Positions 996 to 62,543 of a DNA stretch of 64,000 nucleotides are shown piece after piece. This DNA comes from Malacoraja senta. Taxonomy: Eukaryota. The translations under genes were made by a program, and so were the position numbers. The notes beneath the pieces were generated by a model. It made no database searches, was not told the origin of the DNA, and saw only the letters and a program-made list of their open reading frames with translations. Numbering within the stretch: position 1 is the stretch's first letter; the number at the start of each line of letters is the position of its first letter. The stretch is from assembly GCA_038087875.1 (NCBI GenBank), contig CM075987.1, positions 27,778,001 to 27,842,000 on the forward strand, written 5' to 3'.

Positions 996-1038
<43 letters not shown>

Positions 1039-20182: not shown

Positions 20183-20210
20183 GACGTTTCGGGTCGAGAC
20201 CCTTCTTCAG
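20183..20210 (-). ncRNA. Minimal hammerhead ribozyme motif (Penelope terminal-repeat type), intact core
   Basis: CTGAAGA-A-GGGTC-TC-GACCC-GAAA-CG-TC: CUGANGA and GAAA core, stem II hairpin, palindromic ACGU in place of stem III, GUC triplet. Confidence 0.7.
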
Positions 20211-21258
20211 TCTTTGTGTTCATCTTCGGTTTAAACTAGCATCTGCAGTTCCCTCCTATCACTCGCCCCATCAGTTTCTGAGCTTTCTACCCCCCTATTA
20301 CAATCAGTCTGAAGAAAGGGCCCAACTGAAATGTCATCTGTCCATATCCTCCAGAGATGTAGCCTGACCCACTGAGTTACTCAAGAACTGTGTGATTCAC
20401 ATTCTATCAATATCAGAACAGGCCAAGTATGGTCTGTCATCGATCTATGATATTGGCTCAGTTCTTCTCTCTCATAGGGTCATAAATAATAGCAGAATTT
20501 AGGCCATTCGGCCCATCAAGGCTGCTCCGCCATTCAATCATGGCTGATCTATATCTCCTAACCCCATTCTCATGCCTTCTCCCCATAACCCCTGACACCC
20601 GTACTAATTAAGAATCCATCTATCTCGGCGTTAAAAATATCCATTGACTTGGCCTCCACAGCCTTCTGTGACAAAGAATTCCACAGATTCACCAGCTCTG
20701 ATTGAAGAAATTCCTCCTCATCTCCTTCCAAAAGGAACGTCGTTTAATACTGAGGCTCTAACCTCAAGTCCTAGATTCTCCCACTAGTGAAACATCCTCT
20801 CCACATCCACTCTATCCAAGCCTTTCATTATTCAGTTTCAATGAGGTCCCCCCTCATTCTCTCCAATTGCCCTGCTGGGCATTTCCCATGGCCCTGCTAT
20901 GAGTAACGCATAACACACAGACATGTAATCCCAACTAATTGTCCCCATTAACCCTGTCACAAAAATGTCCTTTGTCCTATCCATCCCTCCATCAACTTCA
21001 CCGAAACTTTCACTCTTTTCCAATTTTAGTTTAGGTTAGTTTAGAGATACAGTGCAGAAACAGGCCTTTTGGCCCGCTAAGTCCTATCAATTCCTTTATA
21101 ATTTGAGTGGTCATCTCTCAAACTTTAGTGAAGAATCCCAGATTATACAATCATTGCGTGCACTCCAGATTTTAGGTTGCTGTGCAGCCGAGGGAGAAGA
21201 GTAGACTGAAACTAGATTCAAATAACTCCAAGTGTAGAATTCAGCACAAGGACAGTAC

Positions 21259-21422
21259 CTGCAGTGTCGCGATTCCAGATCCTCACAGTACAGTCATGTG
21301 CAGAGGTTGCAACCAAAGGGAATGAAGAAGTCCCACTTGGGAGAAAGATGCAGGCCGCAGTACTCTGAAGATGTCCCTTATATTCGCACACCTTAAGTTT
21401 TGCCTGCCTTAAAATCCCACAG
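21259..21422 (-). CDS. WDR31: WDR31 coding exon 8: LWD[+1 nt]LRQAKLKVCEYKGHLQSTAACIFLPSGTSSFPLVATSAHDCTVRIWNRDTA
   Basis: Matches WDR31 LWDLRQ...CEYKGHFQ...ATSSHDCKVKIWNQD. CAG acceptor and GTACTG donor. The exon is 164 nt where 163 is needed. Confidence 0.9.
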
Positions 21423-21799
21423 CTGTAAGAGAGAGGGAAGCTGAGTGATTGGTGATCATATAGCAATCAACTGACTCGATGTTGTCAATAATACTAGTGA
21501 GTCTTGCACTGTAGTGACTTGTTGGATATCATCTAGCAGCTTAAAAAATCTTTTTAAAATCCAAAACACTTCTTGCACTATCAGGTAATTGATAACTTTT
21601 GTTACAATCTGCTTTTGTAGGTAAAATTAAGAGTTTCTGGCAGGGAGGGTGGGGACAGAAATGAGAGTGAGAAATGTCCCCCCCTCCCCCCTCTCCCCCT
21701 CCCCCCCTCCCTTATATCCCCCCATGCTGGGGTGTTTAGAACAGAGACACAGTCCTGCTATAAGGGATTGACCATTAAGGACTGAGATGAGGGGAATGT

Positions 21800-21827
21800 C
21801 TGAAGAAGGGTCTCGACTCGAAACGTC
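21800..21827 (+). ncRNA. Minimal hammerhead ribozyme motif, intact core
   Basis: CTGAAGAAGGGTCTCGACTCGAAACGTC; stem II has one G-U pair. Confidence 0.65.
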
Positions 21828-22560
21828 ACCTATTCCTTCTCTTCAGAGATGCTGCCCGTGAGTTACTCCAGCTTTTTGTGTCTGTCTTCGAGATGAGGAG
21901 AACGGTCTTCAGCTGCTGGGAAGGAAATCCTGGTAAATCTTTTCCCAGGAGTGCTATGCCAGCTCGGTCACCGAATATATATATATATGTATGACAGATA
22001 TTGAGGATCTTTGAGATATTAAGGAATCAAAGTTTATTGCAAAGTAGTGCTGAGAAAAAGATTGGACGTGATCTTATGGAATTGCTGAATAAGGATGAGA
22101 GGTCAATGGCCTACTCTTACTTTGATTTACTTTACTCTTATATTATAAATTATTATTTCAGAATTTGAGAATGAAATCAAACTGGGGTGGAGATAGGGGT
22201 GATTATGAAAGCACCAAAATACAGCACTAATCAACTTGTTATTGGCAAATGTAATGGATTACAGTACAGATAATTATGAGGGGGTGCATTTTAGGTGGAA
22301 TAAAGAGAGGTGATTGGATTACATTTACACGTGTGGCAGAGGTGCAGAGAGAGCTGAGATTAAATCACTAAAGTAGTGATATGTAGAAATGAGGAACTGC
22401 AGATTCCGGTTTACAAAAAAGACAAAGTGCTGGCGTAACTCAGTGGGTCAGGCAGCATCTCTGGAGATCATGAATAGGCAGTGTTCGGGTTTTCAGTGAT
22501 TGCGGGGGGGGGGGGGGGGGGGAAAAGCTGGAAGTGAGGTGGGGGAGACAAAGTCTAAAT

Positions 22561-22845
22561 GGGCGGCAAGGTGGTGCAGCGGTAGAGTTGCTGCCTTACA
22601 GCGCCAGAGACCCAGGTTCGATTCTGACTATGGGTGCTGCCTGTAAGGAGATTGTACGTTCTCCCGTAAACGCGTGGGTTTTCTCCGAGATCTTCGGTTG
22701 CCTCCCACACATACAGGTTTGTAGGTTAATTGGCTTGGTGTTTGTGTTAATTGTCCCTAGTGTGTGAAGGCTAGTGTTAATGTGCAGTGATCTCTGGTCA
22801 GTGTACTCGGTGGGCCTGTTTCCGTGCTTTATCTCTAAAACTAAA
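22561..22845 (+). mobile_element. tRNA-derived V-SINE (HE1-like)
   Basis: A box GGTGCAGCGG, B box GGTTCGATT, V-domain-like GTACGTTCTCCC...GTGGGTTTTCTCCG, and a CTAAA tail. Confidence 0.85.
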
Positions 22846-22860
22846 AAAAATTATCAACTA

Positions 22861-23127
<267 letters not shown>

Positions 23128-23769
23128 TTATTTTCAGTTCCCTTATTTTTTAGTCAAATTCCCTATTCTGGATCTCAACATCAAACTGTGCTCTCAGCGA
23201 CAGAATGAGCAGGAAACTCTGTTTCCTAAATACTTCTAGTTTGTGGCATTATTTGCATATTTTTTCAAAAATGGTTGGGGCATTGCATAATAAATTTTTG
23301 AAATATCAAGCAAATTTATTTGACAAACGACAATCAGGCATTTCACTGTGATGAAATCAAAAATACAAAGTTATTTGTATATCCGAAACAGGAACTTTAC
23401 GCCAAAATAGCTGTAATGCAGAACCAGCAGCAGTCGAGGGCTAAACTAATGTGACTACTAAAATTATAAGAATATAGCACATAAACTAAACCTGAGGCTG
23501 ATTCTTGCTGACAAATGCCAGCAGCTCCACAGCAAACTGACGACATTTTAATCTGTAAACGCTGATAAATTCAGGACATTGGCATATGTGTATTCAAAGA
23601 CAGAAGGTGCAAACCTACTGAAAGATATCAGCCGGTGAACCAGTCTGTTCTCTTTGCAGTGGACCATAGACATGTTGTGCTGGGTGAGCTGCTGTGATCA
23701 ACTGAAACAGGATTTATGTTACTGCTATCATGCCCAAACTGCTTAGTGGAGAGATGTTGACTGATTGCA

Positions 23770-24290
23770 AAGATAGACACACAAAGCTGGAGTAACTCAG
23801 CGGGTCAGACAGCATTTCTGGAGAAAAGGAATAGGTGACGTTTCGGGTCGAGACCCTTCTTCTGACTGAGAATCAGGGGAAAGGGAAACGAGAGATATAG
23901 ACGGTGATGTAGAGAGATATAGAACAAATGAATGAATGATATGCAAATAAGTAACGATGATAAAGGAAACAGGCCAATGTTAGCTGTGGTCTAGGTGAGA
24001 ACAGGTTAGACAATGAGACTCAACAAGACAACTTTGAAGCCAGTATGACTTGGGTGGGGGAGGGATACAAGGGTTACTTGAAGTTAGAGAAATCAACATC
24101 ATACCGCTGGGGTGTAAGCTGCCCAAGCAAAATATGAGGTGCTGTTCCTCCAATTTGCACTGGGCCTCACTCTGACAATGGAGGAGGCCTAGGTCAGAAA
24201 AGTCTGTGTGGGAATGGGAAGGGGAATTAAAGTGTTTGGCAACCAGGAGATCACGTAGGTCCAGGCGGAGTGAGCGAAGGTGTTCAGCGA
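23770..24290 (-). mobile_element. Penelope-like element 3' fragment
   Basis: FAEHLRS...VAKHFNSPSHSHTDFSDLGLLHCQSEAQCKLEEQHLIFCLGSLHPSGM followed by the terminal repeat. Confidence 0.82.
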
Positions 24291-24519
24291 AACTGGAGTG
24301 TGGGAGGGAACTGAAGATTTCAGAGAAATCCCACGTGGTCACGGGGAGAATGTACAAACTCCGTACAGACAGCACCCGTAATTAGGATTGAACCCGGGTC
24401 CCTGTCACTGAAAGCGCTGTAAGGCAGCAACACTACTGCTGCAACATCGTGCCCACTTGATTAATGATTCTTACTGAATATTGGTTCATACTGGTTGAAT
24501 TGGACCATGGTTTACCTAC

Positions 24520-24587
24520 CTGATCATCTTATCCTCTGAAGTCTGAATGACCAGTGATTCTGTGGGGATCCAGCAGATATGTGTCAC
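24520..24587 (-). CDS. WDR31: WDR31 coding exon 6: VTHICWIPTESLVIQTSEDKMIR
   Basis: Hand translation matches VTHLCWVP...QTSEDKTLR. TAG/GTAGGT boundaries, 68 nt, phase 0 to 2. Confidence 0.94.
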
Positions 24588-25669
24588 CTATAAAAGCCAC
24601 ATCAATTAATCAATGCTGCCACATAATCAAACAGCAATAGGTCAACTTGTGACTGTGGCAGTCGTACGCTTGGTGACTGGTTGGCATCAAAGATTATGGG
24701 GAGAAGGCAGGAGAATGGGGCTGAGACGGAAAGATGGATCAGCCATGATTGAATGGCGGAGTAGACTTGATGGGCCGAATGGTCTAATTGCCTAATTCTT
24801 CTCCGATCACTTATGAATCTTCTTGCATTGCTCTTTTTGGGCCATTGAGGGAGAATTTAGACCATGTTGTCTGGAGATGTTCATCATTGGTAAGTCTAGG
24901 TCTTACCTTTGTCAAGCTGTTCTGGGATCTTTACAAGGTGACAGTTATACTTGTCCTCATGGTTCCTCTCCCATAACTAAAATCATTGCTGATCCCAACC
25001 CCTGGATCCATCTTCATATCAGCTGGTGACTTTCTTTGTGCATTGCTCCTAAGCTAAACAGAAGCTTGTGGTGGGAAGGCACATGACTGAATCACTTGTC
25101 GCTAGCTCCCTGCAACTTCTACCTAGCTCACCCTTACTGGTGCACTGCAATTTCAAGCCCTTTGCATGTTAATAAACAGTTATGTAGAGCAAAGAAAAAT
25201 AATAATTGTCATAACAAAGTTGGAAACATAAAAAGAAAATGTTGCACTTTTCATAACCTCAAGATTTCTGTTGTTCAGCAGGGAGTTCCAACATTTTGAC
25301 CCCATCAATGATTAAGGATCAACATTACTTTTCCAAATCAGGATGTCGCACGAATTTGAGGGGAAGCTGCAGGTAGTCAATAGAGGTTGCAGGTTCGACA
25401 GGTGTGGTGGTAGTACCTGGGCAAATAACTGCAGTGCATCTTAGAGATGGTGCCACTGTGCACAAATGGTGGAGAGGGTGAATACGGGTGCCTCCTGTTG
25501 ATGGGATTCCAGTCAAATGGGCTGCTTTGTCCTGAATGTTGCAGTGCCTTTTGCAAGTGAAGACTATTAATTCCATATGCTTCTGACTTGTGCACTGTAG
25601 ATGGAGGAAAGGCCTAGCAGTGGCAGAAATTTAGGGAGAACATAGCTGCTCTCAGGTGCCATGTGACAG

Positions 25670-25945
25670 AGTCATAGAGTGATACAGCATGAAAACAGGC
25701 CCTTCAGCCCAACATGCCCACACCGACCAACATGCTCATTTACACTAGTCCCACCTGCCTGCATTTGACCCATATCCCTCCAAACCTGTCCTATCCATGT
25801 ATCTGTGTAATTGTTTCTTAAACACTGCAATTGTCCCCGTCTCAACTACCTCCTCTGGCAGTTCGTTCCATACACCCACCACCCTTTGTGTGAAAAAGTT
25901 ACCCCTCAGATTCCTATTAAATCTTTCCCCCTTCACCTTAAACCA
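25670..25945 (-). mobile_element. CR1 3' fragment
   Basis: FKVKGERFNRNLRGNFFTQRVVGVWNELP. Confidence 0.85.
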
Positions 25946-26105
25946 TGTCATCTGGTTCTTGATTAAACCCATGTCCTCTAATCTGTACACCTTCCACATT
26001 TATTAGACAGGTCATCTGAAACATGAGACAGCTTGTAGGCTCTCAATATTGCAATCATAAACATTGGGGGAAAAAACCCCATCAATAGTTGTTCATCAGT
26101 CGTAC

Positions 26106-26206
26106 CAGATTCCTGGAAATGGAAGATTTTTGTAGACAGATTCCAGTTTGTACATCCCAGATACGCAAGGAGTTATCCCGGGAGCCCGTACACAATTGGA
26201 AGCCAC
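26106..26206 (-). CDS. WDR31: WDR31 coding exon 5: [34 protein letters not shown]
   Basis: Matches [16 protein letters not shown]...SRN. CAG/GTACGA boundaries, 101 nt, phase 1 to 0. Confidence 0.94.
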
Positions 26207-26791
26207 CTGGAAAAGGAAATAAAACAAAACTGTGGAACACAAAAAAATCATTCTGCAGCATAAATTACGTATTGCCACAAAGAAAGTTCACCTTGGGTAC
26301 AATGCCTTTTCAGTTATGGTCGCAGAACAGTCAGGAAGAGATAAAACATCTGTTAACAATATTATTTTTTAATAATGGTAATTATATATACATGAGATAG
26401 CTCACAGAAATAAATGGTATTCTTCTCTTCCTGCCTCTTTCAATGCATGTTGTCCATCCTGCAACTTGATCCAAAACATCACCAATTTATTTTCTCCAGA
26501 GATGCTGTCTGACCCACTGAGTTACTCCATCTTTTTGTGTCTATCTTTGGTTTAAACCAGAATCTGCAGTTCCTTCCTACACAGTATGCAGTGCTTCACA
26601 TATGGTCTCACTAAGGCAAAACCTCCTAGTTTTGTATTCAATCCCAGTTCGATTCCTTTGTGATCCTTTCTCTCTTTATACCAAATGCATGATTTCACTC
26701 TGCCCTAGTTAAATATATTATAGCAACTACCCTCACGACAGAATATAAATTCTAAGGTGTTACAGAGAACGATAGCTTCCAGTATCCAAAC

Positions 26792-26936
26792 CTGGGCTCA
26801 CAGCTAAGCCTGTCACTCCCAGTTCATGGCCAGTAAACTCCTGCAATGGTCCAGCTTTACTCTTCACGTCCCACATCAGGGCAGTTTTATCACGTGAAGC
26901 ACTGAAGATTCTATTTGATTGAAAGATGCACGTTAC
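26792..26936 (-). CDS. WDR31: WDR31 coding exon 4: VTCIFQSNRIFSASRDKTALMWDVKSKAGPLQEFTGHELGVTGLAVSP
   Basis: Matches FSASRD...MWD...GH..VTGLAVSP. CAG/GTTTGG boundaries, 145 nt, phase 0 to 1. Confidence 0.94.
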
Positions 26937-27857
26937 CTGAAATGAAACAATTTAAAATATCCACATGTAGGTCATCATTTCAATGCAGGAATGGGTTTCA
27001 AACTACCACCCATTCACTACCCACTCTTCCCCCTAATCCCCCAGTGAATAGCTGGAAATAGCCCCAGACACCTTAGAGAATATCACACTATGTGGGTGTT
27101 TCATGCACAACGTATACAGGTGCAAATGATAAGACAAACCACATGCATTAGTTTGGACCTGACCACATTCTCACCTATCATCTTCATCTCTGCAACTCCA
27201 CACCACTGTAATACAATTCCTTCAGGCCAGGTGCTCAAATCTTAACGTTGATATCTATGTTTCTCTGTACGGAGTTTGTCGTGTGTGTAGTGTGTGAGAG
27301 TAGTGTTAAAGTGCAAGGATCACTGGTCGGTGCAGACTCCGTGGGCCGAAGGGCCTGTTTCTGCGCTGTATCTCTAAACTAAACTGACTATGTGAAAGTG
27401 AAGACCACTGTTTTATAAGTTAATTCCATATAAAAGTTTACATTGAGAATCATTTCACTGCTGACAGGAGCTCAGAGCAGGAGATCAGAGGCAACTAAAA
27501 AACTTAGTCACAATTACCCACTACAAGATGACACTGGGAATTTTGTTTCAGTTCATGGTGCAAAATAGTAAATGGAAATGAAAATAGGGAAAAATGTTTA
27601 GAAGTTGGCAAAAATGCAATTCATCTTAGTCAAAATTACTCTTACCACCAATTATAATCTTCACCATACAGTTTGTTTTTGACAATCTATTAAGATTTGA
27701 ACATCAGTGTTTTGAGTTTTATAATTTGCATACATTTTTAAGAGCTTTAACCAGAACAATTTGGCTTAGTTTAGTTCAGAGATACAGAAGGAAACAGTCC
27801 CTTGGTCCACTGGGTTCATGCCGATCACTAATTCTATTCTAGACACCAGAGACAATG

Positions 27858-27993
27858 GGGGTTGGAGATTGCAACCTTCACGTGGTCCACCTTGTTTCGA
27901 CTAATACATTCCACCCAACGTGCACAAACAAAAGATCAAGTAGAACAAGTTGACTTACAACTTTAGGCTGTGCACGCCATACGCCAGAAGAAG
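27858..27993 (+). mobile_element. Short retroposon 3' end with (GAA)n tail, RTE/RTEX-like; second copy at about 40980-41117
   Basis: Two near-identical ~135 bp copies end in CCATACGC(A/C)AGAAGAAGA. This copy interrupts a V-SINE. The clade is inferred from the tail only. Confidence 0.6.
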
Positions 27994-28530
27994 ACCAGAG
28001 ACTATTTATAGAAACCAATTAACGTACAAATCTGTACGTGCTTGGGAATGTGGGAGGAAATTCACACGGTCACAGGGAGAGAACGTACAAATTCTGTACA
28101 GACACACTTGTAGTCAGGATCGAACCCGGGTGTCTGACGCTGTAAGGAAGCCACTCTACCATTGTGCCACTGGGTGTACATTTCCTGTATGGAATTTCAC
28201 AGCTAACAGAAGCAGAATCACATGTGTGCTTATGAAGGCAGCAAAAAGCTGCAGGTCAGCTTTCAGGCCTGTCCAACCTGATATGTCTTTTTACAATAAC
28301 TGGAAACGATCCAAGGTACACCAAAGTGGGAAACAGGACTGGAATAACAGATCACCATTTAATAGAGAATTGTGTTTCTCCACTCAACACAGGTTTGAAC
28401 TCAACACAGGTTTTTGTGTTGAGTTTGAACAACTCAACCCCCTCTGAACGTACAGCACTCTGCTCACTCAGCAACATCCCAACTGTCCGTGCAACATCAA
28501 CCATCTTGACTTCTCCACTCCTGGTAATCC

Positions 28531-28828
28531 CGGGCAGCACGTGGCACAGTGGTAGAGTTGTTGCCTTACACCGCCAGAGACCCAGGTTCAATCCTGACAA
28601 TGGGTGCTGCTGTAAGGAGTTTGTACATTCTCCCCATGACCGCATGGGTTTTCTCCGGCTTCCTCCCACTCTTCAAAGATGTATAGGTCTATAGGTTAAA
28701 TGGCCTTGTTATAATTGTAAAGAATTGTTCCTAGTGTGTAGGATAGTGCTAGTGTATGATGATAGCTGGTCGGCGCGGACTCAGTGGACCAAAGAGCCAA
28801 TCTCTGCCGTGTATCTCTAAACTAAACT
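28531..28828 (+). mobile_element. tRNA-derived V-SINE (HE1-like)
   Basis: Same head, V-domain and CTAAACTAAAC tail as the copy at 22561-22845. Confidence 0.85.
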
Positions 28829-29165
28829 CCTATCTCACCCCCTCTAAATGCACAGCCCTCCTCTCACTCAGCAGCAGGTGAAAATGGGTCGCAACCCGAA
28901 ATATCATCTATCCATGTTCTGATGCTCCAGCATTTCATGTCTTTCCTTGGTAAACCAGCATTTGCAGTTCCTTGGTTCTACATCATTTTGAGAACCATAC
29001 ATCAGAACAAAATACATAATGAAACCTCTGCACCAATCTATTACCAATGAGCAAGTTAAATCCTGGACATTAAAACCTAGCCTGAGATAATAGTTTGTGG
29101 CAGACCTCCAGTTCTCTACTTGTGCATCAAGATTAGTTAGAACACTGCCAATAAATTATTCTTAC

Positions 29166-29240
29166 CTTGGTGACATCACGTTCATGCCCCAGGAATTTTT
29201 GCTGCACACCACCAGACTTCCAGTTATATATGACCACTGT
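29166..29240 (-). CDS. WDR31: WDR31 coding exon 3: TVVIYNWKSGGVQQKFLGHERDVTK
   Basis: Matches TVVAYNWKTG...FKGHEHEITK. TAG/GTAAGA boundaries, 75 nt, phase 0 to 0. Confidence 0.94.
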
Positions 29241-29718
29241 CTATAAAACAGAAAGGTGAGAACATCTCCAGTGACTCCACTATGGAACTAAATTAGTACT
29301 TGAATATCTGCAAATACTTGCACATGTACAATGCAGCTGCCATAACAGTGATACTGTTGGAAAATCCATGTAAAACATGAAATAACACAAAAAGCTGGTT
29401 TAACCCAGCGGGACAGGCAGCATCTCTGGAGAGATGAAATGGGTGACGTTTTATATACGTTTTATAAGATCACCCCTTAGCTTCCTGCACTCCAAGAAAT
29501 AAAGTCCTAGCCTGCTCATCCTCTCCCTGGAGCTCAGGTCCTCGAGTCCCAGCAACGTCCTTATAGATCCTCTGTTCTCTTTCGAGCATAATGACATATT
29601 TCCCACAGTCTGATGTAATACCACAAATCTATCACAATACTGGTGCACAATGGTGTAAAATGGTGATGCTAAAATTCTTTCTCTCCAATTCTTTCCTCTT
29701 GGAAGATAAAAGTCTCAC

Positions 29719-29848
29719 CTTGTCCTTTCCACCAGACACGCATTGTTCAGATGTGAGGGAGGTTATCGATGTCACGGCATCATTATGTGCCGGGCTGTAT
29801 TGTTGCACACTTTGTGTGGAGGAACTGTGGCCTGCAAGCCCATCAATC
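29719..29848 (-). CDS. WDR31: WDR31 coding exon 2: IDGLAGHSSSTQSVQQYSPAHNDAVTSITSLTSEQCVSGGKDK
   Basis: Matches QEYSPAH.D.V......CVSGGKDK. CAG/GTGAGA boundaries, 130 nt, phase 2 to 0. Confidence 0.94.
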
Positions 29849-29960
29849 CTGGAAAAAAATACAACAATTCTAGTAGAAAGCAAATGGCTTGTAACTGCAG
29901 AGTGATGATAGATTTGTTAATTGTTGTTTAAGCTCAGTGGTCTCTGAACTCTCACCGTAC

Positions 29961-30007
29961 CTGTATCGTGATATGTTGCGTTTCTGCTTACTTTGCAGTT
30001 TCCCCAT
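29961..30007 (-). CDS. WDR31: WDR31 coding exon 1: MGKLQSKQKRNISRYR (exon probably starts at 30121 with 5' UTR)
   Basis: Kozak GCCATGG; matches MGKQQSKLKHSTYKY. The AG/GTACGG donor is phase 2 and fits the next exon. A CTCATAG acceptor ends at 30122. Confidence 0.88.
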
Positions 30008-33950: not shown

Positions 33951-33973
33951 CCTTGATACCTCCCCCTCGCTAC

Positions 33974-51562: not shown

Positions 51563-51826
51563 AAAGTGCTGGAGTAACACAGCGGGTCAGGCAGCATCTG
51601 TGGAGAACATGGATAGGTGACGTTTCACAGAGTGCTGGAGTAACTCAGCAGGTCAGGCAGCATCTGTGGAGAACATGGATAGGTGACGTTTCACAGAGTG
51701 CTGGAGTAACTCAGTGGGTCAGGCAGCATCTCTGGAGAACATGGATAGGTGATGTTTCACAGAGTGCTGGAGTAACTCAGCGGGTCAGGCAGCATCTCTG
51801 GAGAACATGGATAGGTGACGTTTCGG
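51563..51826 (-). repeat. 66-bp tandem array of the Penelope terminal repeat (4 units)
   Basis: GAYGTTTC recurs at 51619, 51685, 51751 and 51817. Confidence 0.95.
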
Positions 51827-52989
51827 ATGGGGTCCCTTCTTCGGACCGCGGGGAGAGGAGGAGATGTTCTTCAAAATAGGCATATCATGAGATTTTGCGG
51901 TGGGGCAGTCAAAATGACGGAACAAGGAACTGCAGATGCTGGTTTATAAAAAAAGACACAAAGTGCTGGAGTAACTCAGCAGATCAAGCAGCATCCTTGG
52001 AGAACATGGATAGGTGACGTAGGTAAATGGAAGAAGGGTCCCGACCTGAAATATCATCTATCCATTTTCTCTACAGATGCTGCCTGACCTGCCGAGTTAC
52101 TCCAGCACTTTGTGTCTTTTTTCATAAACCAGTATATACCAATTTTTTCTCTCTTTGCATAATTACTGAATGCTTCTGGCATTACCATCAGGGAGTTAAC
52201 TGTTTACATGCTGGGCTTGTTATTTCTCACTGAGTTGTGTTCTCCTATTACCTACACAATGACTTACCTATCACCCCCCCACCATTCTTCAGCTTCATTG
52301 TCGATAATTCAGAAACCCACGCTCATGGTTCACCCTCTACCTGCAACAAACAACAAAGCGCAGGAGGAACTTAAATGTTTAAGAAAGAACTGCACATGCT
52401 GGAAAAATCGAAGGTAGACAAAAATGCTGGAGAAACTCAGCGGGTGAGGCAGCATCTATGGAGCGAAGGAATAGGTGACGTTTCGGGACGAGACCCTTCT
52501 TAAATAATATTTTTCTTACAACAAATGGATAATCTCCCATTTTCCCCACTGCAATGTTTTGAGCACTTGCTTTAGCTCGTTATATCACTTGTGTTGTCCT
52601 CACTGCTTACTTCCCCATTACGTTTGTATCATCAGCAAACGGGTGCTGCAGACTCATTCCCTTCATAAACACAAAGTGCTGGAGTAACTCAGTGGGACAG
52701 GCAGCATCTCTAGAGAGAAGGAATGGGTGACGTTTCGGATCGAGACCTTTCTTCAGAGGGTCAGGAGGAAGGCTCAGGGTAGAGGGAGATTAGAGATATG
52801 GAAGGGTAAGGTGTGAAAAGGAGAGATTAAAGGGGGTGAAGTCAAGGAAAATGTAGAATGTTTCATGGTGAGCTGAGGGGAATGTGACAAGGAGGGAAAT
52901 GTGACAAGGAGGCATCCAATCAGTAAAATGTAATCAGGAGGACAGTGAGGACGACTATTCGGAGAACTTGGATGGGAGAGCGATTGTCC

Positions 52990-53195
52990 GGGATGGTGGA
53001 AGAGGGAGTGACCGCTGTGAGTCTGGTCCTTGATTATGCTGCTGGCCTTGCCGAGACAGCATGACGTGTAGATCGAGTCAATGGAAGGGAGGTTGGTTTG
53101 TGTGATGGTCTGGCCTGCACGCACAATTCTCTGTAAACATCTTGTGGTCTTGGATAGAGCTGTTCGCAAACCATGCTGTGATCATCCCGATACGA
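52990..53195 (-). mobile_element. Rex1/Babar- or L2-type LINE C-terminal fragment; related pieces at about 4330-4440, 60100-60690 and 63845-64000
   Basis: LQRIVRA.QTITQTNLPSIDSIYTS.CLGKASSIIKD.TH.GHSLF motif. Confidence 0.7.
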
Positions 53196-53229
53196 CATGT
53201 AAAAATATCCAACATATTTCAGTATTAGT

Positions 53230-53502
53230 TCTCAGTTTTAGAGATACAGCATGGAAACATGCCCTTCAGCCTATCGAATCCATGCTGACCACCGCTCCCC
53301 ATACACTAGCACTTATCCTACACACTAGGGACAATTTACAATTTTACCAAAGCGAGTTACCCTACAAACCTGGACATCCTTGTAGTGTGGGAGAAAACCC
53401 ACGCGGTCACGGGGAGAACGTACAAACTCCGTACAGACGCACCCATAGTCGGGATCAAACCCGGGTCTCTGGCGCTGTGAGGCAGCAACTCTACCGCTGC
53501 CC
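53230..53502 (-). mobile_element. tRNA-derived V-SINE
   Basis: Reverse complement of the family at 22561; a further copy lies at about 60840-61120. Confidence 0.8.
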
Positions 53503-54014
53503 ATTGAATTAGGTTAATGCGTTAAGTGGGGCAAGACATGATAAGCAAGCTCAAATTTGTGAAAAAAACATTAAAATCCTTATTGGTTTCCTCCTTACTA
53601 TAGAGTCTTGTTACCACCCATTGTGGGTGTCAGAGTGAATGTCGCTGTTTGCTGAACTGTTGTAGCATCAAATGAATGTGAGGACTAGCCCTAATTAGAT
53701 CACGGAATCTGCTGAATAACAACCTTCCCAATGAGATGTTTGAGATAAGTATCCATCCACGCAGGCTGCCTGGGGCACATACCATCCAGTTTGATGCTGT
53801 GAATGGCTGAGACTCATTGCACTTTCAAGGAGGATAACCTCAAGTGGTTACTGAACAGAATGAGTATTTGTACGGGATAGAATTTATAAATAGTATGTGC
53901 GCGTATTCAATCGCTCTCTGATCATGGGGGTGCTGCTATTTTATGCTTTGTACATGATTTCCTGCCTGAATCTGGCCTTAACGTACCCACTTAATTATGA
54001 CTCAGATCAGGACA

Positions 54015-54450
54015 ATCACTGGGCCTGTAGTCGCTGGAGTTTGGAAGGATGAGGGGACACTTCATTGAAACGTATTGAATAGTGAAAGGCCAGGATAGAG
54101 TGACTGTGGAAAGGATGTTTCCACTAGTGGCAGAGTCTAGGACCAGAGGCCAAAGCCTCAGACTGAGAGGACAAACCTCTAGAAGGGAGAGGAGAAGAAA
54201 TTTCTTTTTGTCAGAGGGTGGTGAATCTGTGGCATTCATTGCCACGGACGACTGTGGAGGCCAAGTCAGTGGTTATTTTTGAGGCTGAGATTGATAGATT
54301 TTTGACTAGAACGGGTGTCAGGGGTTATGGGGAGAAAGCAGGAAAATGGGGTTGAGAGAGAAAGATAGATCAGCCATGATTTAATGGTGGAGTACACTTG
54401 ATGGGCCGAATGGCCTTTTTCTGTTCCTAAAAAGTTATGAACTTATGACA
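54015..54450 (+). mobile_element. CR1 3' fragment; similar pieces at about 20478-20860, 42215-42565, 50875-51185, 54735-55028, 55715-55930, 58690-59155 and 61235-61785
   Basis: ERMFPLVAESRTRGQSLR...RNFF motif and conserved tail. Confidence 0.85.
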
Positions 54451-56483
54451 GCACACAAAGAAAATCTCATACAGCAGGGTAACATTTAGAACGTAAAATC
54501 TAGAACAGTACAGCACGGGAATAGGCCCTTCAGCTCACAATGTCCGTGCCCAACATGATGCCAAGTTAAACCAATTTCCTCTGCCTGCACGTGATCCACA
54601 TCGCTCCATTTCTCGAACAAATCAGGTTATTAAGGCCTTATTGACGTACATACTGGAAAGTACCCGAGAGAGAGCTAAAAAATATGCTGTTTGCCAGAAA
54701 TCTTCCAGAACTTTCCAGTATTTGTGTTACAATAGTTATAGAGTGATACAGCATAGGAATAGGCCCAATAGCGCAAGTTGCCCACACCGACCAACATGTC
54801 CCAGCTACACTAGTCTGCGTTTGGCCCATATCCCTCTAAACCTGTCCTATCCATATACCTGTCCAAATATTACTTAAACGTTGCGATAGTCCCAGCCTCA
54901 ACTACCTCCTCCGGCAACTCGTTCCATACACCCACCACCCTCTGTGTGAAAAAGTTACCCCTCGGATTCCTATTAAATTTTCTCCCTTCACCTTGAACCT
55001 ATGTCCTCTGGTCCTCGATTTCCCTACTAACATTGACTATTTTCTTCTGATTTCTGTGTATTCCTTCATCGCTGCTGCCTGCTGCTCTCTAGATAAAGGA
55101 ACGGAGATGAAACACCTTCCCTGTGAGCAAGGAGATTTTGTGACATAAAATGAGCCCAAGGCCCGGAGCTGAGTGACGATGAAGAAGTGGCTGAGATATG
55201 CAGCCTTGGGGCAGCTCTGCCTCCCGATAGTGGCTGAGATAAATGACCAGCTTGGAGAGGTTTAACTGCCAGGTGGCACAACAGTAGAGTTGCTGCCTCA
55301 CAGCGCCAGAGGTCCAGGTTCAATCCCGACTATGATATGGGCCAAGCTTGGAGAGCTAGGACTGGTGTAGATGGAGCATGTTTGTCGCATGGGCAAGTTG
55401 GGCCGAAGGGCCTGTTTCCACACTGTCTCTGTGACTCTATGATAGATTCCTGGTGAGTTTACCATGAAGGGTGTGTAAGAGATGCCCTTTGTGAGTTTTC
55501 CACTCACCCTCCCACAGCTGTTCAAGGCACCAATTGGCAGATGTCTCAGCCTTCTCCCCATGTCATCTCTCTTAGGTCTTGCCCCAAGAACAACAACGAT
55601 CTGGTTGCAAATATGTAAGATCACAGATGGCTGGAGATGTAGCCGTTAAGAGGAGATGAATTAACCGATTTATTTTTGAAGAGATCGTAGTTTAAGTCGA
55701 AGGGGAAAACGGATTTAATATGAATCTTTTTCACACAAAGGGTGGTGGGTGTATGGAACGAGCTGCCAGGGGAGGTAGTTGAGGCAGGGACTATCGCTAC
55801 GTTTGAGAATCATTTAGACAGGCACATGAATAGGACAGGTTTAGAGGGAAATGGGCCAAACGCAGGCAGGTGGGACTAGTGTAGATGGGGCATGTTGGGC
55901 CGAAGGGCCTGTTTCCGCACGGTATCACTGTGACTGGGAGATGTTTCGGATGTTCATTGGTAATATCAAACCTCGTGGACTGACGGGTAACCCGGAGCCG
56001 CGAGTTCTCTGTGAAGCAAAGGTACAAAATGCTGGAGTAACATAGCGGGAAAGGCTGCATCTGTGAATGAAGGGAAGGAATGGGTGAAGAAGCTTCGGAA
56101 AGGTCTGAATTCAGACAGTCTGAAGAAGAGTCTCGACCCGATACATCACCCATTCCTTCTCTCCAGAGATGCTGCCTGTCCCGCTGAGTTACTCCAGCTT
56201 TTTGTGTCTATCTTCGGTGTAAACCAGCACCTGCAGTTCCTTCCCACACATCTCTGTGAAGGGAGTTTGGACGTCTTGGAGGGGTTATTAACACAAATAG
56301 TCTTCCATTAAATCAGGACAGACAGACCCTTGCTTTATTCGTACAGGACCAGCTGAGGGTTTAAGAGTGAGGACCTCGCTAGATCTCTCGTTACTTTTCC
56401 ACCCATCAGGACGGAGGGTGCGTGTGAGTAAAATGTCCAGGCTGGGCGCGCCTCGGTATTTCCTGTATTACTCGCCCGCCATG

Positions 56484-56773
56484 TCCTCTCCCTCTCTCTC
56501 ATCCCCTCCCTCTCTCCCACTCCCCCCCCCTCCCTCTCTCCCACTCCCCCCCCTCCCTCTCCCCATCTCTCTCTCTCCCTCCCCCCCTCCCTCCCCTCCC
56601 TCTTCCCCCCTCCCCTCTCCCCATCTCTCTCTCCCTCTCTCCCTCTCTCTCTCTCCACCCACTTCTCTTCCTCTCCACCTGCCTTTCAACCTCCCTCCCC
56701 CCACCCACTCACCTCTACAGTTTCCGCGTTCACCTGTTACCGGCCGCTCCGCCCTCTCTCTCCCCCTCCCCCT

Positions 56774-56814
<41 letters not shown>

Positions 56815-56903
56815 TCTGTCTCTCTCTCCATCTCTGTCTCTCTCTCCATCTCTGTCTCTCTCTCTCCCTCTCTCCCTCTCTCCCACTCTCCCTCTCTCTG
56901 CCC
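56484..56903. repeat. ~420 bp polypyrimidine/(CT)n low-complexity tract inside a CpG-rich promoter region
   Basis: Read directly from the sequence. Confidence 0.95.
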
Positions 56904-56905
56904 CC

Positions 56906-57076
56906 ATGTCCGAGCCCGGACCCGCTGCCCCCACCTGCCCGGCCGCTGGAGTCCAGGATGGGGATCGCGATGCCGCAGGGAGCGGCGCCTGTCCCATCCA
57001 CGGAGCCCCGACCGGCAGCGAACAGCTCGGCACCGGCACCGGCACCGGCACCGGGCAGGCGGCGGAGCGCATGAGG
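56906..57076 (+). CDS. BSPRY: Probable BSPRY first coding exon: MSEPGPAAPTC...GACPIHGAPTGSEQLGTGTGTGTGQAAERMR
   Basis: CpG-rich exon, 57 codons, ending in AGG/GTGAGT at phase 0. EPGP, CPIHG and AERMR resemble human BSPRY EPGP, CPEHG and AEELR as recalled. BSPRY is the divergent neighbour of WDR31 in human. No downstream exon was found in the window. Confidence 0.6.
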
Positions 57077-57424
57077 GTGAGTGTGAGTGGAGGGGGCAGG
57101 TGTGGGCACAGAGAGGGCAGGGCAACAGGCAACAGGTGCAGAGTGTTGGGTTTGGGTACAGCGACAGTGTAGTACAGGTAGCAGGTATGACTGTGGGACA
57201 GGGAGCAGGTACAGTGACACTGTTACACACAACAGGTACCAAGACCACCCCCCACCCTCCGGTACAGGTGAGGGGTACCAGGATAATGGGGCAGAGGCTG
57301 AATGGGGTGGAGCGGGATTAGGGTTCAAGTATCGGGGCCAGGTACATTGGGTACAGGGGGACTGGGATACAGGGTACAGGGAGCAATGTACACGGAAGGT
57401 TCAGGGCATCGGTTACAGGGAAAT

Positions 57425-58360
57425 ATAGACAATAGATGCAGGAGCAGGCCATTCGGCCCTTCGAGCCAGCACCGCCATTCAATGTGATCATGACTGATCA
57501 TCCCCAATCAGTACCCCGTTCCTGCCTTCTCTCCATATCCCTGACTCTGCTATTTTTAAGAGCCCTATCTAGCTCTCTCTCGAAAGCATCCAGAGAACTG
57601 GCCTCCACCGCCCTCTGAGGCAGAGAATTCCACAGACTCACAACTCTCTGTGAGAAAAAGTGTTTCCTGGTCTCCGTTCTAAATGCCTTACCCCTTATTC
57701 TTAAACTGTGGCCCCTGGTTCTGGACTCCCCCAACATCGGGAACATGTTTCCTGCCTCTAGCGTGTCCCAACCCTTAACAATCTTATATGTTTTAATAAG
57801 ATCCCTTCTCATCCTTCTAAACTCCAGAGTGTACAAGCCCAGCTGCTCCATTCTCTCAGCATATGACAGTCCCACCATCCCGGGAATTAACCTTGTAAAC
57901 CTATGCTGCACTCCCTCAATAGCAAGAATGTCCTTCCTCAAATTAGGGGACCAAAACTGCACACAATACTCCAGGTGTGGTCTCACTAGGGCCCTGTACA
58001 ACTGCAGAAGGACCTCTTTGCTCCTATACTTGACTCCTCTTGTTATAACGGCCAACATGCCATTTGCTTTCTTCACTGCCTGCTGTACCTGCATGCTTAC
58101 TTTCATAGACTGATGAACAAGGACCCTCAGATCCGGTTGTACTTCCCCTTTTCCCAACTTGACGCCATTTAGATAGTATTCTGCCTTCCTGTTTTTTATA
58201 CCAAAGTGGATAACCTCACATTTATCCACATTAAACTTCATCTGCCATGCATCTGCCCACTCCCCCGACTTGTCCAAGTCACCCTGCATTCTCATAGCAT
58301 CCTCCTCACAGTTCACACTGCCACCCAGCTTTGTGTCATCTGCAAATTTGCTAATGTTGC
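57425..58360 (-). mobile_element. 5'-truncated CR1 LINE (RT C-terminus still open)
   Basis: NISKFADDTKLGG...RRMRRDLI...FSQRVVSLWNSLP. Confidence 0.93.
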
Positions 58361-59567
58361 TTTGAAATTTAGAGAGTACCAGGGGAAGTGGGGGCATCAA
58401 GAGAAGAGTGTGCAGGCATTCAGGCAGAGGTCTGAAGGCAGAGGGAGTGCACGGGCGTCTCAGCCTATTTTTGGAAACTGCAACTGCATGAACCTGTTCT
58501 CAGGAGAAAGGTTAAAAATGTACACCGTGTGTTCAACCTCAGTTGTGAAACGTGACTCCTGGATCGACAGGAGTTGCTTTGGGAATGATCAGTGCTTTTG
58601 GTCCTTGTAGAACCTAAATCAGGTCACGCTGGTAAACACTGCCATTCTTCAGCTCTGTCCCCTCCCCTCCCCCCTCCCCCCAGCCTCTCAACAGAGAAGA
58701 TTTACGAGGATGTTTCCAGGACTCGAGGCCCTGAGCTATAGGGAGAGGTTGAGTAGGCTGGGACTCTATTCCTTAGAGCGCAGGAGGATGAGGGGGGATC
58801 TTATAGAGGTGTATAAAATCATGAGAGGAATAGATCGGATGGATGCACAGAGTCTCTTGCCCAGAGTGGGGGAATTGAGAACCAGAGGACATAGGTTTAA
58901 GGTGAAGGGGGAAAGATTTAATAGTAATCTGAGGGGTAACATTTTCACGCAAAGGGTGGTGGGTGTATGGAACGAGCTGCCAGAGGAGGTAGTTGAGGCA
59001 GGTACTATCTCAACAGTTAGGAAGCAATTAGGTACAGGACACGTTTAGAGGGATATGGACCAAACGCAGGCAGGTGGGATTAGTGTAGATGGGACATGTA
59101 TGTCGGTGTAAGCAAGTTGGGCTGAGGCCCTGTTTCCACACTGTATCACTCTATGACGCTCTCCCTGAAGCTGGCATTGGTGTGTGAGTTGGTTCTGAGC
59201 CCTGAACTGATTGATGATGCATCTGTGGCACTGGGAGCAGAGCGTTCAAACGAGACGTTTCTGGGCTAGACTGGGATGTGCAGCTCACTAACTGCTCATT
59301 TGACCAATGGTTCTCTGTCAGTATCTATATTAGTCTTCTCCCAATCTATTTCATCTCATGAAAGGACACAAAGTACTGGAGTAGTTTAGTTCAGTTTAGT
59401 TTATTGTCACGTGTACTGAGGGACAGTGAAAAGCTTTTGTTATGTGCTAACCAGTCAGCGGAAAGACAATACATGATTACAATTGAACTGTCCACAGTGT
59501 ACTGAGTAATTCAGCTGGTCAGGCAGCATCTCTGGAGAACATGGATTGGACACGTTTCAGATCCAGT

Positions 59568-59595
59568 CTGAAGAAGGGTCTAGACCCGAAACGTC
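59568..59595 (+). ncRNA. Minimal hammerhead ribozyme motif, intact core
   Basis: CTGAAGAAGGGTCTAGACCCGAAACGTC. Confidence 0.68.
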
Positions 59596-61334
59596 ACCGA
59601 ATCCATGTTCTCCAGAGATGCTGCCTGACCTGCTGAGTTAATCCAGCACTTTGTGTCCTTTTGCGTATTAACCGGCATCTGTAGTTCCTTGTTTCTACTA
59701 TTTCATTCCATTCTTTTTGTCTATCTTTTTTGAAAGATGGGATCCTCTAGGCTGCAGAAATAGCAGGTCTGGGAAACCGATAAACCAGCTTAAAAACCAG
59801 TTGCTCTGTGCAGCAATCTCCACCCAAGGTCCTCGAGGCAAAGGGGAGGACTCCTGGATAGAGAGACCTCCACAGGCAATCAACCTCACTGCTGGGGCCT
59901 CATCGCCTTTACACAGTATGAATAAAGAACTGCAGATGCCGGTTAATACACAAAAGGACACAAAGTGCTGGAGTAACTCAACGGGTCAGGCAGCATCCCC
60001 GGAGAACATGGATAAGTGACCTTTCGGGTCGAGACCTTTCTTCAGACTCACAGGGTCTTCAGAAGAAAGGTCTCAATCTAAAACATCACCTATTTTTAGT
60101 TTCCATGAATTTAGTTTAATGTCACGTGTTCTTAGGTAAAGTGAAAAGCTTTTGTTGCGTGCTAACCAGTCAGTGGAAAGACAATATATGATTATAATCG
60201 AGCCGTCCACAGTGTACAGATAAGGAAATAACGCTTAGTACAAGGTCCACCAAAGATAGTCCAAGTTACCAACGAGGTAGATAATAGTTCAGGACCGCTC
60301 TTTAGTTATGGAAGGATGGTTCATTTGCCTGATAACCAGCTGGGAAGGAACTGTCCCTGAATCTGGTGTGCATTTTCATACTTCTATATCTTTTTCCTGA
60401 TGGGAGAAGAGGGAGTGGCCGGTTAGACTGGTCCTTGATTATGCTGCTGGCCTTGCCGAGGCAGCGTGACATGACATGTGACATGAGCGTGAGGTGTAAA
60501 TGGAGTCAATGGAAGGGAGGTTGGTTTGTGTGACGGTCTGGGCTGCGTCCACAATTCGCTGCAATTTCTTGCGGTCTTGGATGGAGCTGTTCCCAAACCG
60601 CGCTGTGATGCATCCTGATAAAATGCTTTATACGGCGCATCTGTGGAAGTTGGTGAGAGTTGTTCGGGACATGCCGAACTTCCTAAGCCCGCCCACTGTA
60701 AGCTTTTACAATGTGTTGAAAATAAGATGTTAAAAATTGTTTGACATATTTGGAATAGTTTCTTGGAACACTGTTGTTGAGCCAACAAGTGAACATTTTT
60801 AGATCTGGACATGAAGAATTAGTTAATTTAGAAAAACAATGTGGAATCAGGTCTTTCGGCCTACCAAGTCTACGCCACCTATTTATCGTCCGTACACAAG
60901 TTCTATCCTACCCATTAGGGACAATTTACAGAAGCCAAGTAATCTACAAACCTGTACGTCTTTGGGATATGGGAGGAAACCGGAGCACCCGGAGAAAACC
61001 CACGCGGTCACAGGAAGAACGTACAAACTCTATACAGACAGCACCTGTAGTCAGGATCGACCCCGGGTCTCTGGCGCTGCAAGCGCTGTAAGGCAGCAAC
61101 TCTACCGCTGGGTCACCGTGTCAACGGTACATGTCACTGATGATGCTGTCAGGAGACATTTACTGACCAGTGACCACCTTGGGTTTCCACTTGGCTCCAT
61201 CTTCATCAGCCTTGGTCTGGCCAAAGGCCAAAGGACTTGGATGTGGAGAGGATGTTTCCACTAGTAGGTGAGTCTAGGACGAGAGGTTATAGCCGCAGAA
61301 TTAAAGGACATTGCTTTAGAAAGGAGATGAGGAG

Positions 61335-61534
61335 NNNNNNNNNNNNNNNNNNNNNNNNNNNNNNNNNNNNNNNNNNNNNNNNNNNNNNNNNNNNNNNNNN
61401 NNNNNNNNNNNNNNNNNNNNNNNNNNNNNNNNNNNNNNNNNNNNNNNNNNNNNNNNNNNNNNNNNNNNNNNNNNNNNNNNNNNNNNNNNNNNNNNNNNNN
61501 NNNNNNNNNNNNNNNNNNNNNNNNNNNNNNNNNN
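61335..61534. other. Assembly gap, 200 N
   Basis: Read directly from the sequence. Confidence 1.
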
Positions 61535-62515
61535 AGATGAGGAGGAATTCCTTTAGTGCTGAATTTGTGGAATTCTTTGCCACAGAAGACTGCAGAGGTC
61601 AAGTCAGTGGATATTTTTAAGGCAGAGATGGATAGGTTCTTGATTAGTACAGGTGTCAGAGGTTATGGGGAGAAGTCAGGGGAATGGGGTTAGGAGGGAG
61701 AGAGAGAGATCGACCATGATTGAATGGCAGAGCAGAGTTGATGGGCCGAATAGCCTAATTCTACTCCTATCACATGACTTATGACTGAATTGTAGAGATA
61801 AGGCGTGAGTGACTGACCTCGGCGTTCAGATGATGGAATGCGGCATCAGTTGTATGTTGACGGAGTTTGAACGTTTTCCCTGTGACCCCATGGTTTTCTC
61901 CGGGTACTCCGGCTTCCTCCCACACCCCAAAGAGGTGCAGGATTGCTGTAAATTGTCCCTGGTGTGTGTGGGATCACGCTAATGTATGGGCTGATCACCG
62001 GTCAGTGTTGACTCGGTGGGCAGAAGGGTCTGTTTCCGCACTATATCTCCAAACTAAACTAAACTTTTAAGTAAGTCAGGTCGTACATAAGTTGGAGCCA
62101 CCATCGTCATCCCATGAGTGAACTGACTCACTGAGAGTATTAACCATCTCAGAGGCGTCTGGCTGCATATAGGGCACTTTCTGCAGGGCCTGACCTTCTG
62201 GGTAAGCACCACCGCCATTGCAGGCTTGTTTCCAGCCAGTAGACGTACAAAGGGTCTCCATAAACATTTACTGATCTCTTCCTTTTTACAGAACTGTCGA
62301 AGGTTTCACATCCCTTTTTATGTTTCATGATCAGTTACTCTTGTAATCTACCTTCCCTTTTCCTTGTCAATATTTGCTCCCCCTTTGCTGAATTCTGAAA
62401 TAATCTCAATCCTCAGCCCTTGTGCCATTTCCCTCCAGCTGAACACCAGCTTTAACCTGTTCATGACAACAGCTAGACAACTTCTCCCTCTGTGCTTGTG
62501 TGCCTCAAAGTAATA

Positions 62516-62543
62516 CTGAAGAAGGGCCTCTACCCGAAACGTC
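62516..62543 (+). ncRNA. Minimal hammerhead ribozyme motif, core intact, stem II weakened
   Basis: CTGAAGAAGGGCCTCTACCCGAAACGTC. Confidence 0.55.

What the first reader, a model, noticed from the sequence alone, without database searches (positions are those of the whole stretch)
20183..62543. Penelope terminal repeats scatter minimal hammerhead ribozyme cores across the window
Seen: the most abundant short repeat contains CTGAAGA-A-GGGTCTCGACCC-GAAACGTC. Intact cores are at 20183-20210 (-), 21800-21827 (+), 59568-59595 (+) and 62516-62543 (+), with more than 15 degenerate copies. Three copies are attached to GIY-YIG-like coding remnants. Established: Penelope-like elements carry minimal type I hammerheads in their terminal repeats, with a palindromic stem III (here ACGU) thought to act as dimers. 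Inference: this genome probably has very many such motifs. The intact copy at 20183 is in the sense strand of the last WDR31 intron and could in principle cut the pre-mRNA. Stem I looks very short, so activity is uncertain.
Basis: partly seen in the sequence, partly recalled or inferred. Interest (0 to 1): 0.7.

Follow-up and report, generated by a model that had tools for sequence, protein, structure and literature searches.

The report
Penelope-element minimal hammerheads in skate introns
The window holds dozens of short, broken tail-ends of a Penelope-like jumping gene, many carrying a minimal hammerhead ribozyme motif of a kind described in 2014; the copy in the WDR31 intron lacks one of the three helices, so it likely cannot cut the host RNA.

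Summary
The motif is real. It matches 7 times against 0.04 expected, and the repeat has 56 fragments covering 8% of the window. Three copies lie about 200 nt behind the C-terminal half of a GIY-YIG endonuclease that matches RT+GIY-YIG proteins. The repeat is therefore the 3' end (pseudo-LTR) of a Penelope-like element, likely Neptune-type, in a skate-like genome. This is the known minimal-hammerhead arrangement (PMC4209133), and the scan reported it before in four shark-like windows.

'Intact' is overstated. Only 2 of 26 positions scored have the full core, stem II, the ACGU palindrome and any stem I, and that stem I is 2 bp. Copy 20183 is indeed sense in the last WDR31 intron but has no stem I. 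Copy 21800 is antisense, 59568 is locked in a hairpin, and 62516 has no stem I. Once subfamily-diagnostic columns are set aside, single copies conserve the core no better than the tail.

Open points: very high copy number, 5' ends clustered just before the core (21 of 28), and a CAG resembling a splice acceptor.

The parts
20183..20210 (-). minimal hammerhead core with stem II and ACGU; no stem I; sense in the last WDR31 intron
20212..20254 (+). inverted piece of the repeat tail that replaces the normal 5' flank of the 20183 copy
21800..21827 (+). minimal hammerhead core, stem II with one G-U pair, 2-bp stem I; antisense to WDR31
59568..59595 (+). minimal hammerhead core with 2-bp stem I, preceded by an inverted copy (59469-59568) predicted to pair over its cut site
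   Evidence: -75.7 kcal/mol, z -11.7
62516..62543 (+). core with 3 of 4 stem II pairs and no stem I; full tail to 62639
23770..24297 (-). 5'-truncated Penelope-like element: endonuclease C-terminal half, about 200 nt pyrimidine-rich spacer, hammerhead motif (U4 changed), tail; sense in a WDR31 intron
44502..44981 (+). second endonuclease-linked copy; 44% identical over 70 aa to the C terminus of the RT+GIY-YIG protein P0069; stem II damaged
3608..4162 (-). third endonuclease-linked copy, frameshifted; G12 lost
47304..47568 (+). core-bearing copy followed by two extra 66-nt units that start at GAAACGUC
51526..51848 (-). core-bearing copy followed by three extra 66-nt units with the same junction
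2762..63506 (.). span of all 56 fragments of the roughly 130-nt repeat (at least three or four subfamilies by tail sequence)
18459..30007 (-). host gene WDR31, coding span; last intron 18620-21258

Best explanation
The repeats are 5'-truncated copies of the 3' end (pseudo-LTR) of a Penelope-like retrotransposon family, likely Neptune-type, and they carry a minimal hammerhead motif that likely mattered only in the RNA of the source elements and is likely inert in these scattered copies. Shown: the link to the endonuclease end, the motif anatomy, inverted and tandem junctions, and the lack of stem I at 20183. Inferred: the element's reverse transcriptase starts about 60-100 nt downstream of the cut site (two clusters of 3' ends) and usually stops just past the core, so most insertions are about 130 nt long. 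In a tandem source transcript two motifs would pair through ACGU and, probably with protein help, cut after GUC. Once inserted alone, a copy has no partner in cis, often loses its stem I 5' strand, and decays like the rest of the repeat, fastest at CpG.
For: Three copies follow a GIY-YIG C-terminal half. Its relatives P0069, P0070 and P0027 are RT+GIY-YIG proteins with a C-x4-CxxC linker, and P0069 and P0070 show the DKG motif; PMC8557442 gives such a linker for Neptune and Nematis. 13 adjacent opposite-strand pairs among 56 fragments fit the inverted 5'-truncated copies typical of these elements (PMC8557442). 22 of 56 fragments end at model columns 136-139 and 23 of 56 at columns 101-125 (five of those are tandem units), which fits the optional 30-40 bp tail (PMC11167929). 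The motif has the extra base after A9, G10.1-C11.1 and palindromic 15.2-16.2, as in PMC4209133. No subfamily-diagnostic column falls in the core (0 of 10) against 9 of 60 in the tail (P 0.34, weak). Copy-level decay is alike in core and tail (4.8% against 6.0%, P 0.55), and G12, in a CpG, is changed in 6 of 25 copies. No strand bias in WDR31 introns: 4 sense, 5 antisense (low power). None of 8 monomers folds as a hammerhead, and the double hammerhead lies 4-31 kcal/mol above two free monomers in 8 of 8 copies.
Against: No cleavage was measured. Nearest-neighbour energies ignore core tertiary contacts and protein help. No full-length element or RT remnant of this family lies in the window, so the tandem source and the clade are inferred from distant proteins (44% identity). 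Against the whole tail the core is better conserved (P 0.005), though cells are not independent. The clustering of 5' ends just before the core (21 of 28) is not explained by random truncation and could mean a separate short RNA. No genome was available for a genome-wide count.
Confidence: 0.85

Rival explanations
1. The 130-nt unit is a non-autonomous SINE-like or retrozyme-like element with its own short RNA that begins just before the core and is copied by the Penelope-like enzyme.
For: 21 of 28 core-bearing copies share at most about a dozen bases upstream of C3 with the pseudo-LTR, and only 7 extend further. Loose ends at 20210 agree for about five letters and are then mixed, agreement 0.35-0.43, in 4 of 4 runs. 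Two 66-nt tandem arrays share one junction. bioRxiv 10.64898/2026.07.22.740005 derives animal retrozymes from pseudo-LTRs.
Against: Retrozymes are tandem repeats with a complete hammerhead in consecutive units; here the extra units lack the 5' half of the core. Long and short copies share the same tails. A ribozyme-made 5' end would lie after GUC, but only 4 of 56 fragments start at model columns 36-45. Mixed loose ends are also what several subfamilies would give. A reverse-transcriptase stop or template switch at the structured core explains the same clustering.
Confidence: 0.2
2. The ribozyme is switched by splicing: the CAG just before U2.1 is a 3' splice site, and the upstream exon supplies the missing stem I pairs, as drawn for Drosophila virilis Penelope.
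For: CAGT is the commonest sequence at positions 2.4-2.1 (10 of 28) and follows a pyrimidine tract, although A2.3 and C2.4 do not pair with 1.3 and 1.4. Loose-end consensus at 20210 starts with the complement of TCAGT in 4 of 4 runs. Three copies with GGT upstream form 3 pairs (one of them is truncated, so its pairing is chance). PMC4209133 maps an intron end to the 5' end of a 2-bp helix I in D. virilis.
Against: The whole spacer is pyrimidine-rich, so a CAG there can be incidental. None of the 15 joints shown ends at this CAG, but 8218 were not shown, so this is inconclusive. The donor-like sites I could see by eye in the endonuclease remnant would not extend stem I.
Confidence: 0.1
3. Intronic sense copies cut host pre-mRNA, in trans-dimers formed among the very many transcribed copies, and so affect host genes such as WDR31.
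For: 20183 is sense in a WDR31 intron with all 11 core bases. The family is abundant in RNA-guess contigs. The Anolis motif cleaves in vitro with protein help (PMC11167929).
Against: No stem I at 20183; competing fold; no sense-strand depletion in 9 WDR31 intron fragments; no reads ending at the cut site in Anolis RNA-seq (PMC11167929). One caveat: 20183 keeps GUC-ACC and could serve as the substrate half for another copy's 2-bp stem I, which is predicted to be unstable.
Confidence: 0.04
4. The motif is a vestige with no catalytic role even in the source elements, serving at most as a protein-binding or priming landmark.
For: The family-typical stem I is only 2 bp against 4-5 bp in most minimal hammerheads (PMC4209133). 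Core mutants did not affect Anolis insertion in vitro (PMC11167929). Naiad elements thrive without canonical hammerheads (PMC8557442).
Against: All catalytic positions are the majority base in 25 spanning copies across subfamilies, and the same core is kept across animal phyla (PMC4209133).
Confidence: 0.25

Closest known systems
Minimal hammerheads (min-HHR) in pseudo-LTRs of metazoan Penelope-like elements (Cervera and de la Pena 2014, PMC4209133)
   Same: CUGANGA and GAAA core, extra base after A9, G10.1-C11.1, no loop III with palindromic ACGU, GUC cut site, mostly solitary truncated copies, opposite-strand neighbours.
   Different: Stem II is 4 bp and stem I 2 bp, against 7-8 and 4-5 bp in the Schistosoma families. 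Density is far higher than the 4,000-9,000 per genome reported for coelacanth and Xenopus, though the counts use different criteria. No cartilaginous fish appears in the parts I read or in the two supplements searched (file 1 not searchable, figures not seen).
Drosophila virilis Penelope hammerhead variant (PMC4209133)
   Same: 2-bp helix I with an intron end at its 5' side; here a CAG after a pyrimidine tract sits at the same place.
   Different: D. virilis has a small helix III insertion and a 6-bp bulged helix II; an intron is shown there and only suspected here.
Anolis Poseidon element PAc (Frangieh et al. 2024, PMC11167929)
   Same: Hammerhead in the pseudo-LTR, and 3' ends of insertions at two sites downstream of the cut site (tail).
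   Different: Penelope/Poseidon clade with the ORF starting in stem II; no such start codon is seen in stem II here, and the skate relatives carry the Zn-finger linker.
Animal non-LTR retrozymes (bioRxiv 10.64898/2026.07.22.740005; PMC7229834, listing only)
   Same: Type I hammerhead motif, pseudo-LTR origin, non-coding.
   Different: Retrozymes have two or more consecutive units with a complete hammerhead; the arrays here repeat only the cut-site half.

Membership tests
Minimal type I hammerhead (min-HHR) | Conserved core C3 U4 G5 A6 G8 A9, G12 A13 A14 A15.1, U16.1 H17 | tested here: met
   Majority base at every position in 25 spanning copies; all 11 present in 9 of 26 ungapped positions
Minimal type I hammerhead (min-HHR) | Helix II with G10.1-C11.1 and an unpaired base after A9 | tested here: met
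   GGGU/ACCC with A after A9 in 24 of 25 copies; little covariation within the window, one U-G variant at 10181
Minimal type I hammerhead (min-HHR) | Palindromic 15.1-16.1 without loop III | tested here: met
   ACGU is the majority; a palindrome in 17 of 26 ungapped positions
Minimal type I hammerhead (min-HHR) | Helix I of 4-5 bp (2 bp in the D. virilis variant) | tested here: inconclusive
   2 bp in family-typical copies, 3 bp in GGT-led copies, 0 at 20183 and 62516, 6 at 60045 where the palindrome is broken
Minimal type I hammerhead (min-HHR) | Self-cleavage as dimer or with protein | not testable with these tools
   Only contigs were available, which show no RNA ends
Canonical hammerhead families in Rfam | Match to a curated covariance model | tested here: not met
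   0 matches at gathering score in the window; no hammerhead among 36 matches up to E 10 in 20000-22000
Endonuclease-bearing Penelope-like elements | RT with C-terminal GIY-YIG endonuclease upstream of the repeat | tested here: met
   Endonuclease C-terminal half next to three copies, homologous to the ends of RT+GIY-YIG proteins; the RT itself is absent from the window
Endonuclease-bearing Penelope-like elements | 5' truncation, inverted adjacent copies, optional 30-40 bp tail | tested here: met
   13 adjacent opposite-strand pairs and two clusters of 3' ends among 56 fragments
Endonuclease-bearing Penelope-like elements | ORF flanked by two pseudo-LTRs (full-length tandem) | not testable with these tools
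   No genome held; no full-length copy in the window
Neptune clade | Zn-finger-like CX2-5CxxC linker between RT and endonuclease, and RT phylogeny | tested here: inconclusive
   Linker present in skate relatives P0002 and P0003 and in P0069; Nematis shares a linker (PMC8557442); no tree was built
Non-LTR retrozymes | At least two consecutive tandem units each with a complete hammerhead | tested here: not met
   Both arrays repeat a 66-nt unit lacking CUGAAGA and stem II

The most novel reading that the evidence does not exclude
Skates carry on the order of 100,000 or more hammerhead cores from a Penelope-derived short element whose ribozyme is switched on by splicing at the CAG just before the core, or by a cis-duplicated cut-site arm (66-nt arrays). 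That would be a far larger ribozyme load than the thousands per genome reported for other vertebrates, and one able to cut some host transcripts.
Probability: 0.08. Interest if true: 0.65.

Novelty: new member of a known kind. Interest (0 to 1): 0.24.

Why it matters
The association itself has been known since 2014, so the finding mainly extends it to skates. What hammerheads do for Penelope-like elements is still open (PMC8557442, PMC11167929). A family this dense gives statistical power for two tests: sense-strand depletion in introns and cyclic-phosphate ends at the cut site. The clustering of 5' ends at the edge of the core, not at the cut site, is a clue to how these elements are copied.

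Tried and rejected
Whole-genome count: no genome is held. Rfam gave no hammerhead match. The direct-repeat finder was swamped by a CA-rich array. Pfam on the three endonuclease remnants found no GIY-YIG; the link came through relatives. Sequencing runs: no RNA holder listed, and only contigs were available, so RNA ends, strand and level could not be read; the table of starts and ends was empty, which is no evidence. No splice joint at the CAG among the 15 joints shown, with 8218 not shown. The first dimer comparison with long flanks kept the tails unfolded and is unfair; one search replaces it, and crashed. A cis hammerhead from the 66-nt arrays lies 8 and 18 kcal/mol above the free fold, and both lead copies are damaged, so it is not supported. 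A conserved tail hairpin as a special structure: z-scores from -0.74 to 0.97 in 8 of 8 copies, so no support. An open frame through the repeat was seen but the subfamily differences do not look synonymous (by eye); dropped. Papers on hammerheads or Penelope elements in skates or sharks: searches listed none on the subject (listings only; subscription papers are not covered). A sequence look-up in the scan's own notes found nothing.
Full report
Observation. The pattern CTGANGA-N{0,30}-GAAACGT occurs 7 times in the window against 0.04 by chance, and the 28-base motif occurs 16 times within 3 mismatches against 0.00. All four named copies are at the stated places. A profile built from 15 seed copies and iterated once finds 56 fragments, 5192 bases or 8.1% of the window, 28 per strand. 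The unit is about 130 nt: the core followed by a tail of about 100 nt, in at least three or four subfamilies. Rfam has no match at gathering score and no hammerhead among 36 weak matches in 20000-22000. I did not count other repeat families, so 'most abundant' is untested within the window.

Host context. The exon at 21259-21413 is 96% identical to WDR31 of the skate Rhinoraja longicauda, and that protein maps in nine pieces from 30007 to 18462 on the minus strand. A contig of run X1 joins the exons at 22904-23053 and 21259-21413, and contigs of X3 and X6 stop at 18619, where an AG acceptor lies. These runs are only guessed to be RNA and come from related organisms.

What the repeat is. Three copies lie about 200 nt behind a short coding remnant. 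The remnant has 429 relatives among the protein representatives. Of 17 scanned against Pfam, 10 show GIY-YIG, one of them above the curated cut-off together with RT (P0069), and P0070 and P0027 also show RT. The window piece aligns with the last 70 residues of P0069 at 44% identity. P0069 and the skate proteins P0002 and P0003 carry a cysteine linker before the endonuclease, which PMC8557442 (passages read) gives for Neptune and Nematis; Neptune is my inference, with no tree built. No RT of this family lies in the window. Four more copies carry 35 to about 230 nt of the same spacer. There are 13 adjacent opposite-strand pairs, and 3' ends cluster at model columns 136-139 (22 of 56) and 101-125 (23 of 56, five of them tandem units). 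Inverted truncated neighbours and an optional 30-40 bp tail are hallmarks of these elements (PMC8557442; PMC11167929, parts 1-2 of 4 read).

Ribozyme anatomy. The majority sequence has all core bases, an extra A after A9, a 4-bp stem II, ACGU without loop III and a GUC site. This matches the minimal hammerheads of PMC4209133 (parts 1-2 of 4 read; figures not seen; two supplements searched, file 1 not searchable). Stem I is the weak part: the usual flank gives two pairs. Of 26 positions scored without gaps, 9 have all 11 core bases, 3 also have stem II and the palindrome, and 2 have stem I (about five rows are out of register, indel-bearing or truncated). At 20183 the 5' flank is an inverted piece of tail and no stem I forms. 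Loose ends in 4 of 4 runs show that the family normally has TCAGT there. Copy 59568 is predicted to be buried in a hairpin with its inverted neighbour (-75.7 kcal/mol). None of 8 monomers folds as a hammerhead, and the double hammerhead is 4-31 kcal/mol above two free monomers in 8 of 8; these energies ignore tertiary contacts and proteins.

Conservation and strand. In 25 copies chosen by span, non-CpG core cells differ from the majority in 12 of 248 and tail cells in 153 of 1462 (P 0.005). Without the 9 subfamily-diagnostic tail columns the tail figure is 75 of 1245 (P 0.55). Diagnostic columns number 0 of 10 in the core and 9 of 60 in the tail (P 0.34) (cells are not independent). G12, in a CpG, is changed in 6 of 25. 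I read this as constraint in the source elements and neutral decay afterwards. WDR31 introns hold 4 sense and 5 antisense fragments, too few to test depletion.

Copy number. Nine full cores in 64 kb is about 140 per Mb. With a genome of roughly 2 Gb (recalled, not from a call) that would be a few hundred thousand, if this window is typical. In run X9 the bin holding copy 20183 has a summed depth of 20.6 million against 33-54 in most unique bins; the tool warns that this is no copy number, so it is only a hint in the same direction. PMC4209133 reports about 4,000 and 9,000 for coelacanth and Xenopus with a stricter descriptor.

Mechanism. Most likely the element's RT-endonuclease starts cDNA in the tail and usually stops just past the core, leaving solitary copies of about 130 nt. 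In tandem source transcripts two motifs would pair through ACGU and cut after GUC, weakly or with protein help: monomers were inactive and dimers weak in PMC4209133, and the Anolis motif cut only with protein, was dispensable for insertion in vitro and left no ends in RNA-seq (PMC11167929). Solitary copies are likely inert, and cutting of WDR31 pre-mRNA by 20183 is unlikely.

Unexplained. Twenty-one of 28 core-bearing copies begin within about a dozen bases of C3 (long matches that are only inverted neighbours were set aside), while only 4 of 56 fragments begin near the cut site. An earlier scan note (e1-7789301) mentioned such short copies in a shark, and I quantified it here after reading that note. 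CAGT is the commonest flank (10 of 28) and resembles a splice acceptor at the place where the D. virilis intron ends; contigs could not test this. Two arrays repeat a 66-nt unit that carries only the cut-site half; a cis hammerhead is predicted to be unfavourable.

Novelty. This is a new member of a known kind. Searches listed no paper on this motif in skates, within a library that lacks most subscription journals. The 2026 preprint (parts 1-2 of 5 and passages read; supplements closed) found retrozymes in its one cartilaginous fish. Four earlier scan reports gave the same reading on shark-like genomes; they are not independent support.

Noticed in passing
window 30990-34963, minus strand: A near-intact LINE of CR1/L2 type just upstream of the WDR31 start codon: an SGNH/GDSL esterase-like ORF1 (329 aa frame) and an endonuclease-RT ORF2 (1002 aa frame). 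The clade name is my recall.
   Followed up: partly
window 47304-47568 (+) and 51526-51848 (-): Two separate arrays share the same 66-nt unit and junction starting at G12, which suggests a subfamily with a built-in duplication of the cut-site arm.
   Followed up: partly
window 41880-44562, minus strand: Three exons with ML-domain matches, likely the GM2 ganglioside activator gene (name recalled); a pseudo-LTR copy at 42869-43180 starts about 40 nt from one exon frame.
   Followed up: partly
P0001, P0002, P0003, P0004: The same endonuclease end appears as the last part of several predicted skate proteins (for example one named receptor-transporting protein 3-like and one SAC2-like), either exonised or mis-annotated.
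   Followed up: no
window 11675-12633 and 13536-14447: A direct duplication of about 970 nt at 88% identity, with related frames at 12955-13419 and 14433-14735; element not identified.
   Followed up: no
window 690-2780 and 36710-38100: A CA-rich array of about 2 kb and a minisatellite of about 1.3 kb.
   Followed up: no
window 19029-19114, plus strand: A fourth endonuclease-end fragment with no pseudo-LTR attached, in the last WDR31 intron.
   Followed up: no
window 49058-49972, minus strand: A frame with a weak zf-RVT match, probably the 3' end of another LINE.
   Followed up: no
window 61335-61534: A run of 200 N, an assembly gap.
   Followed up: no
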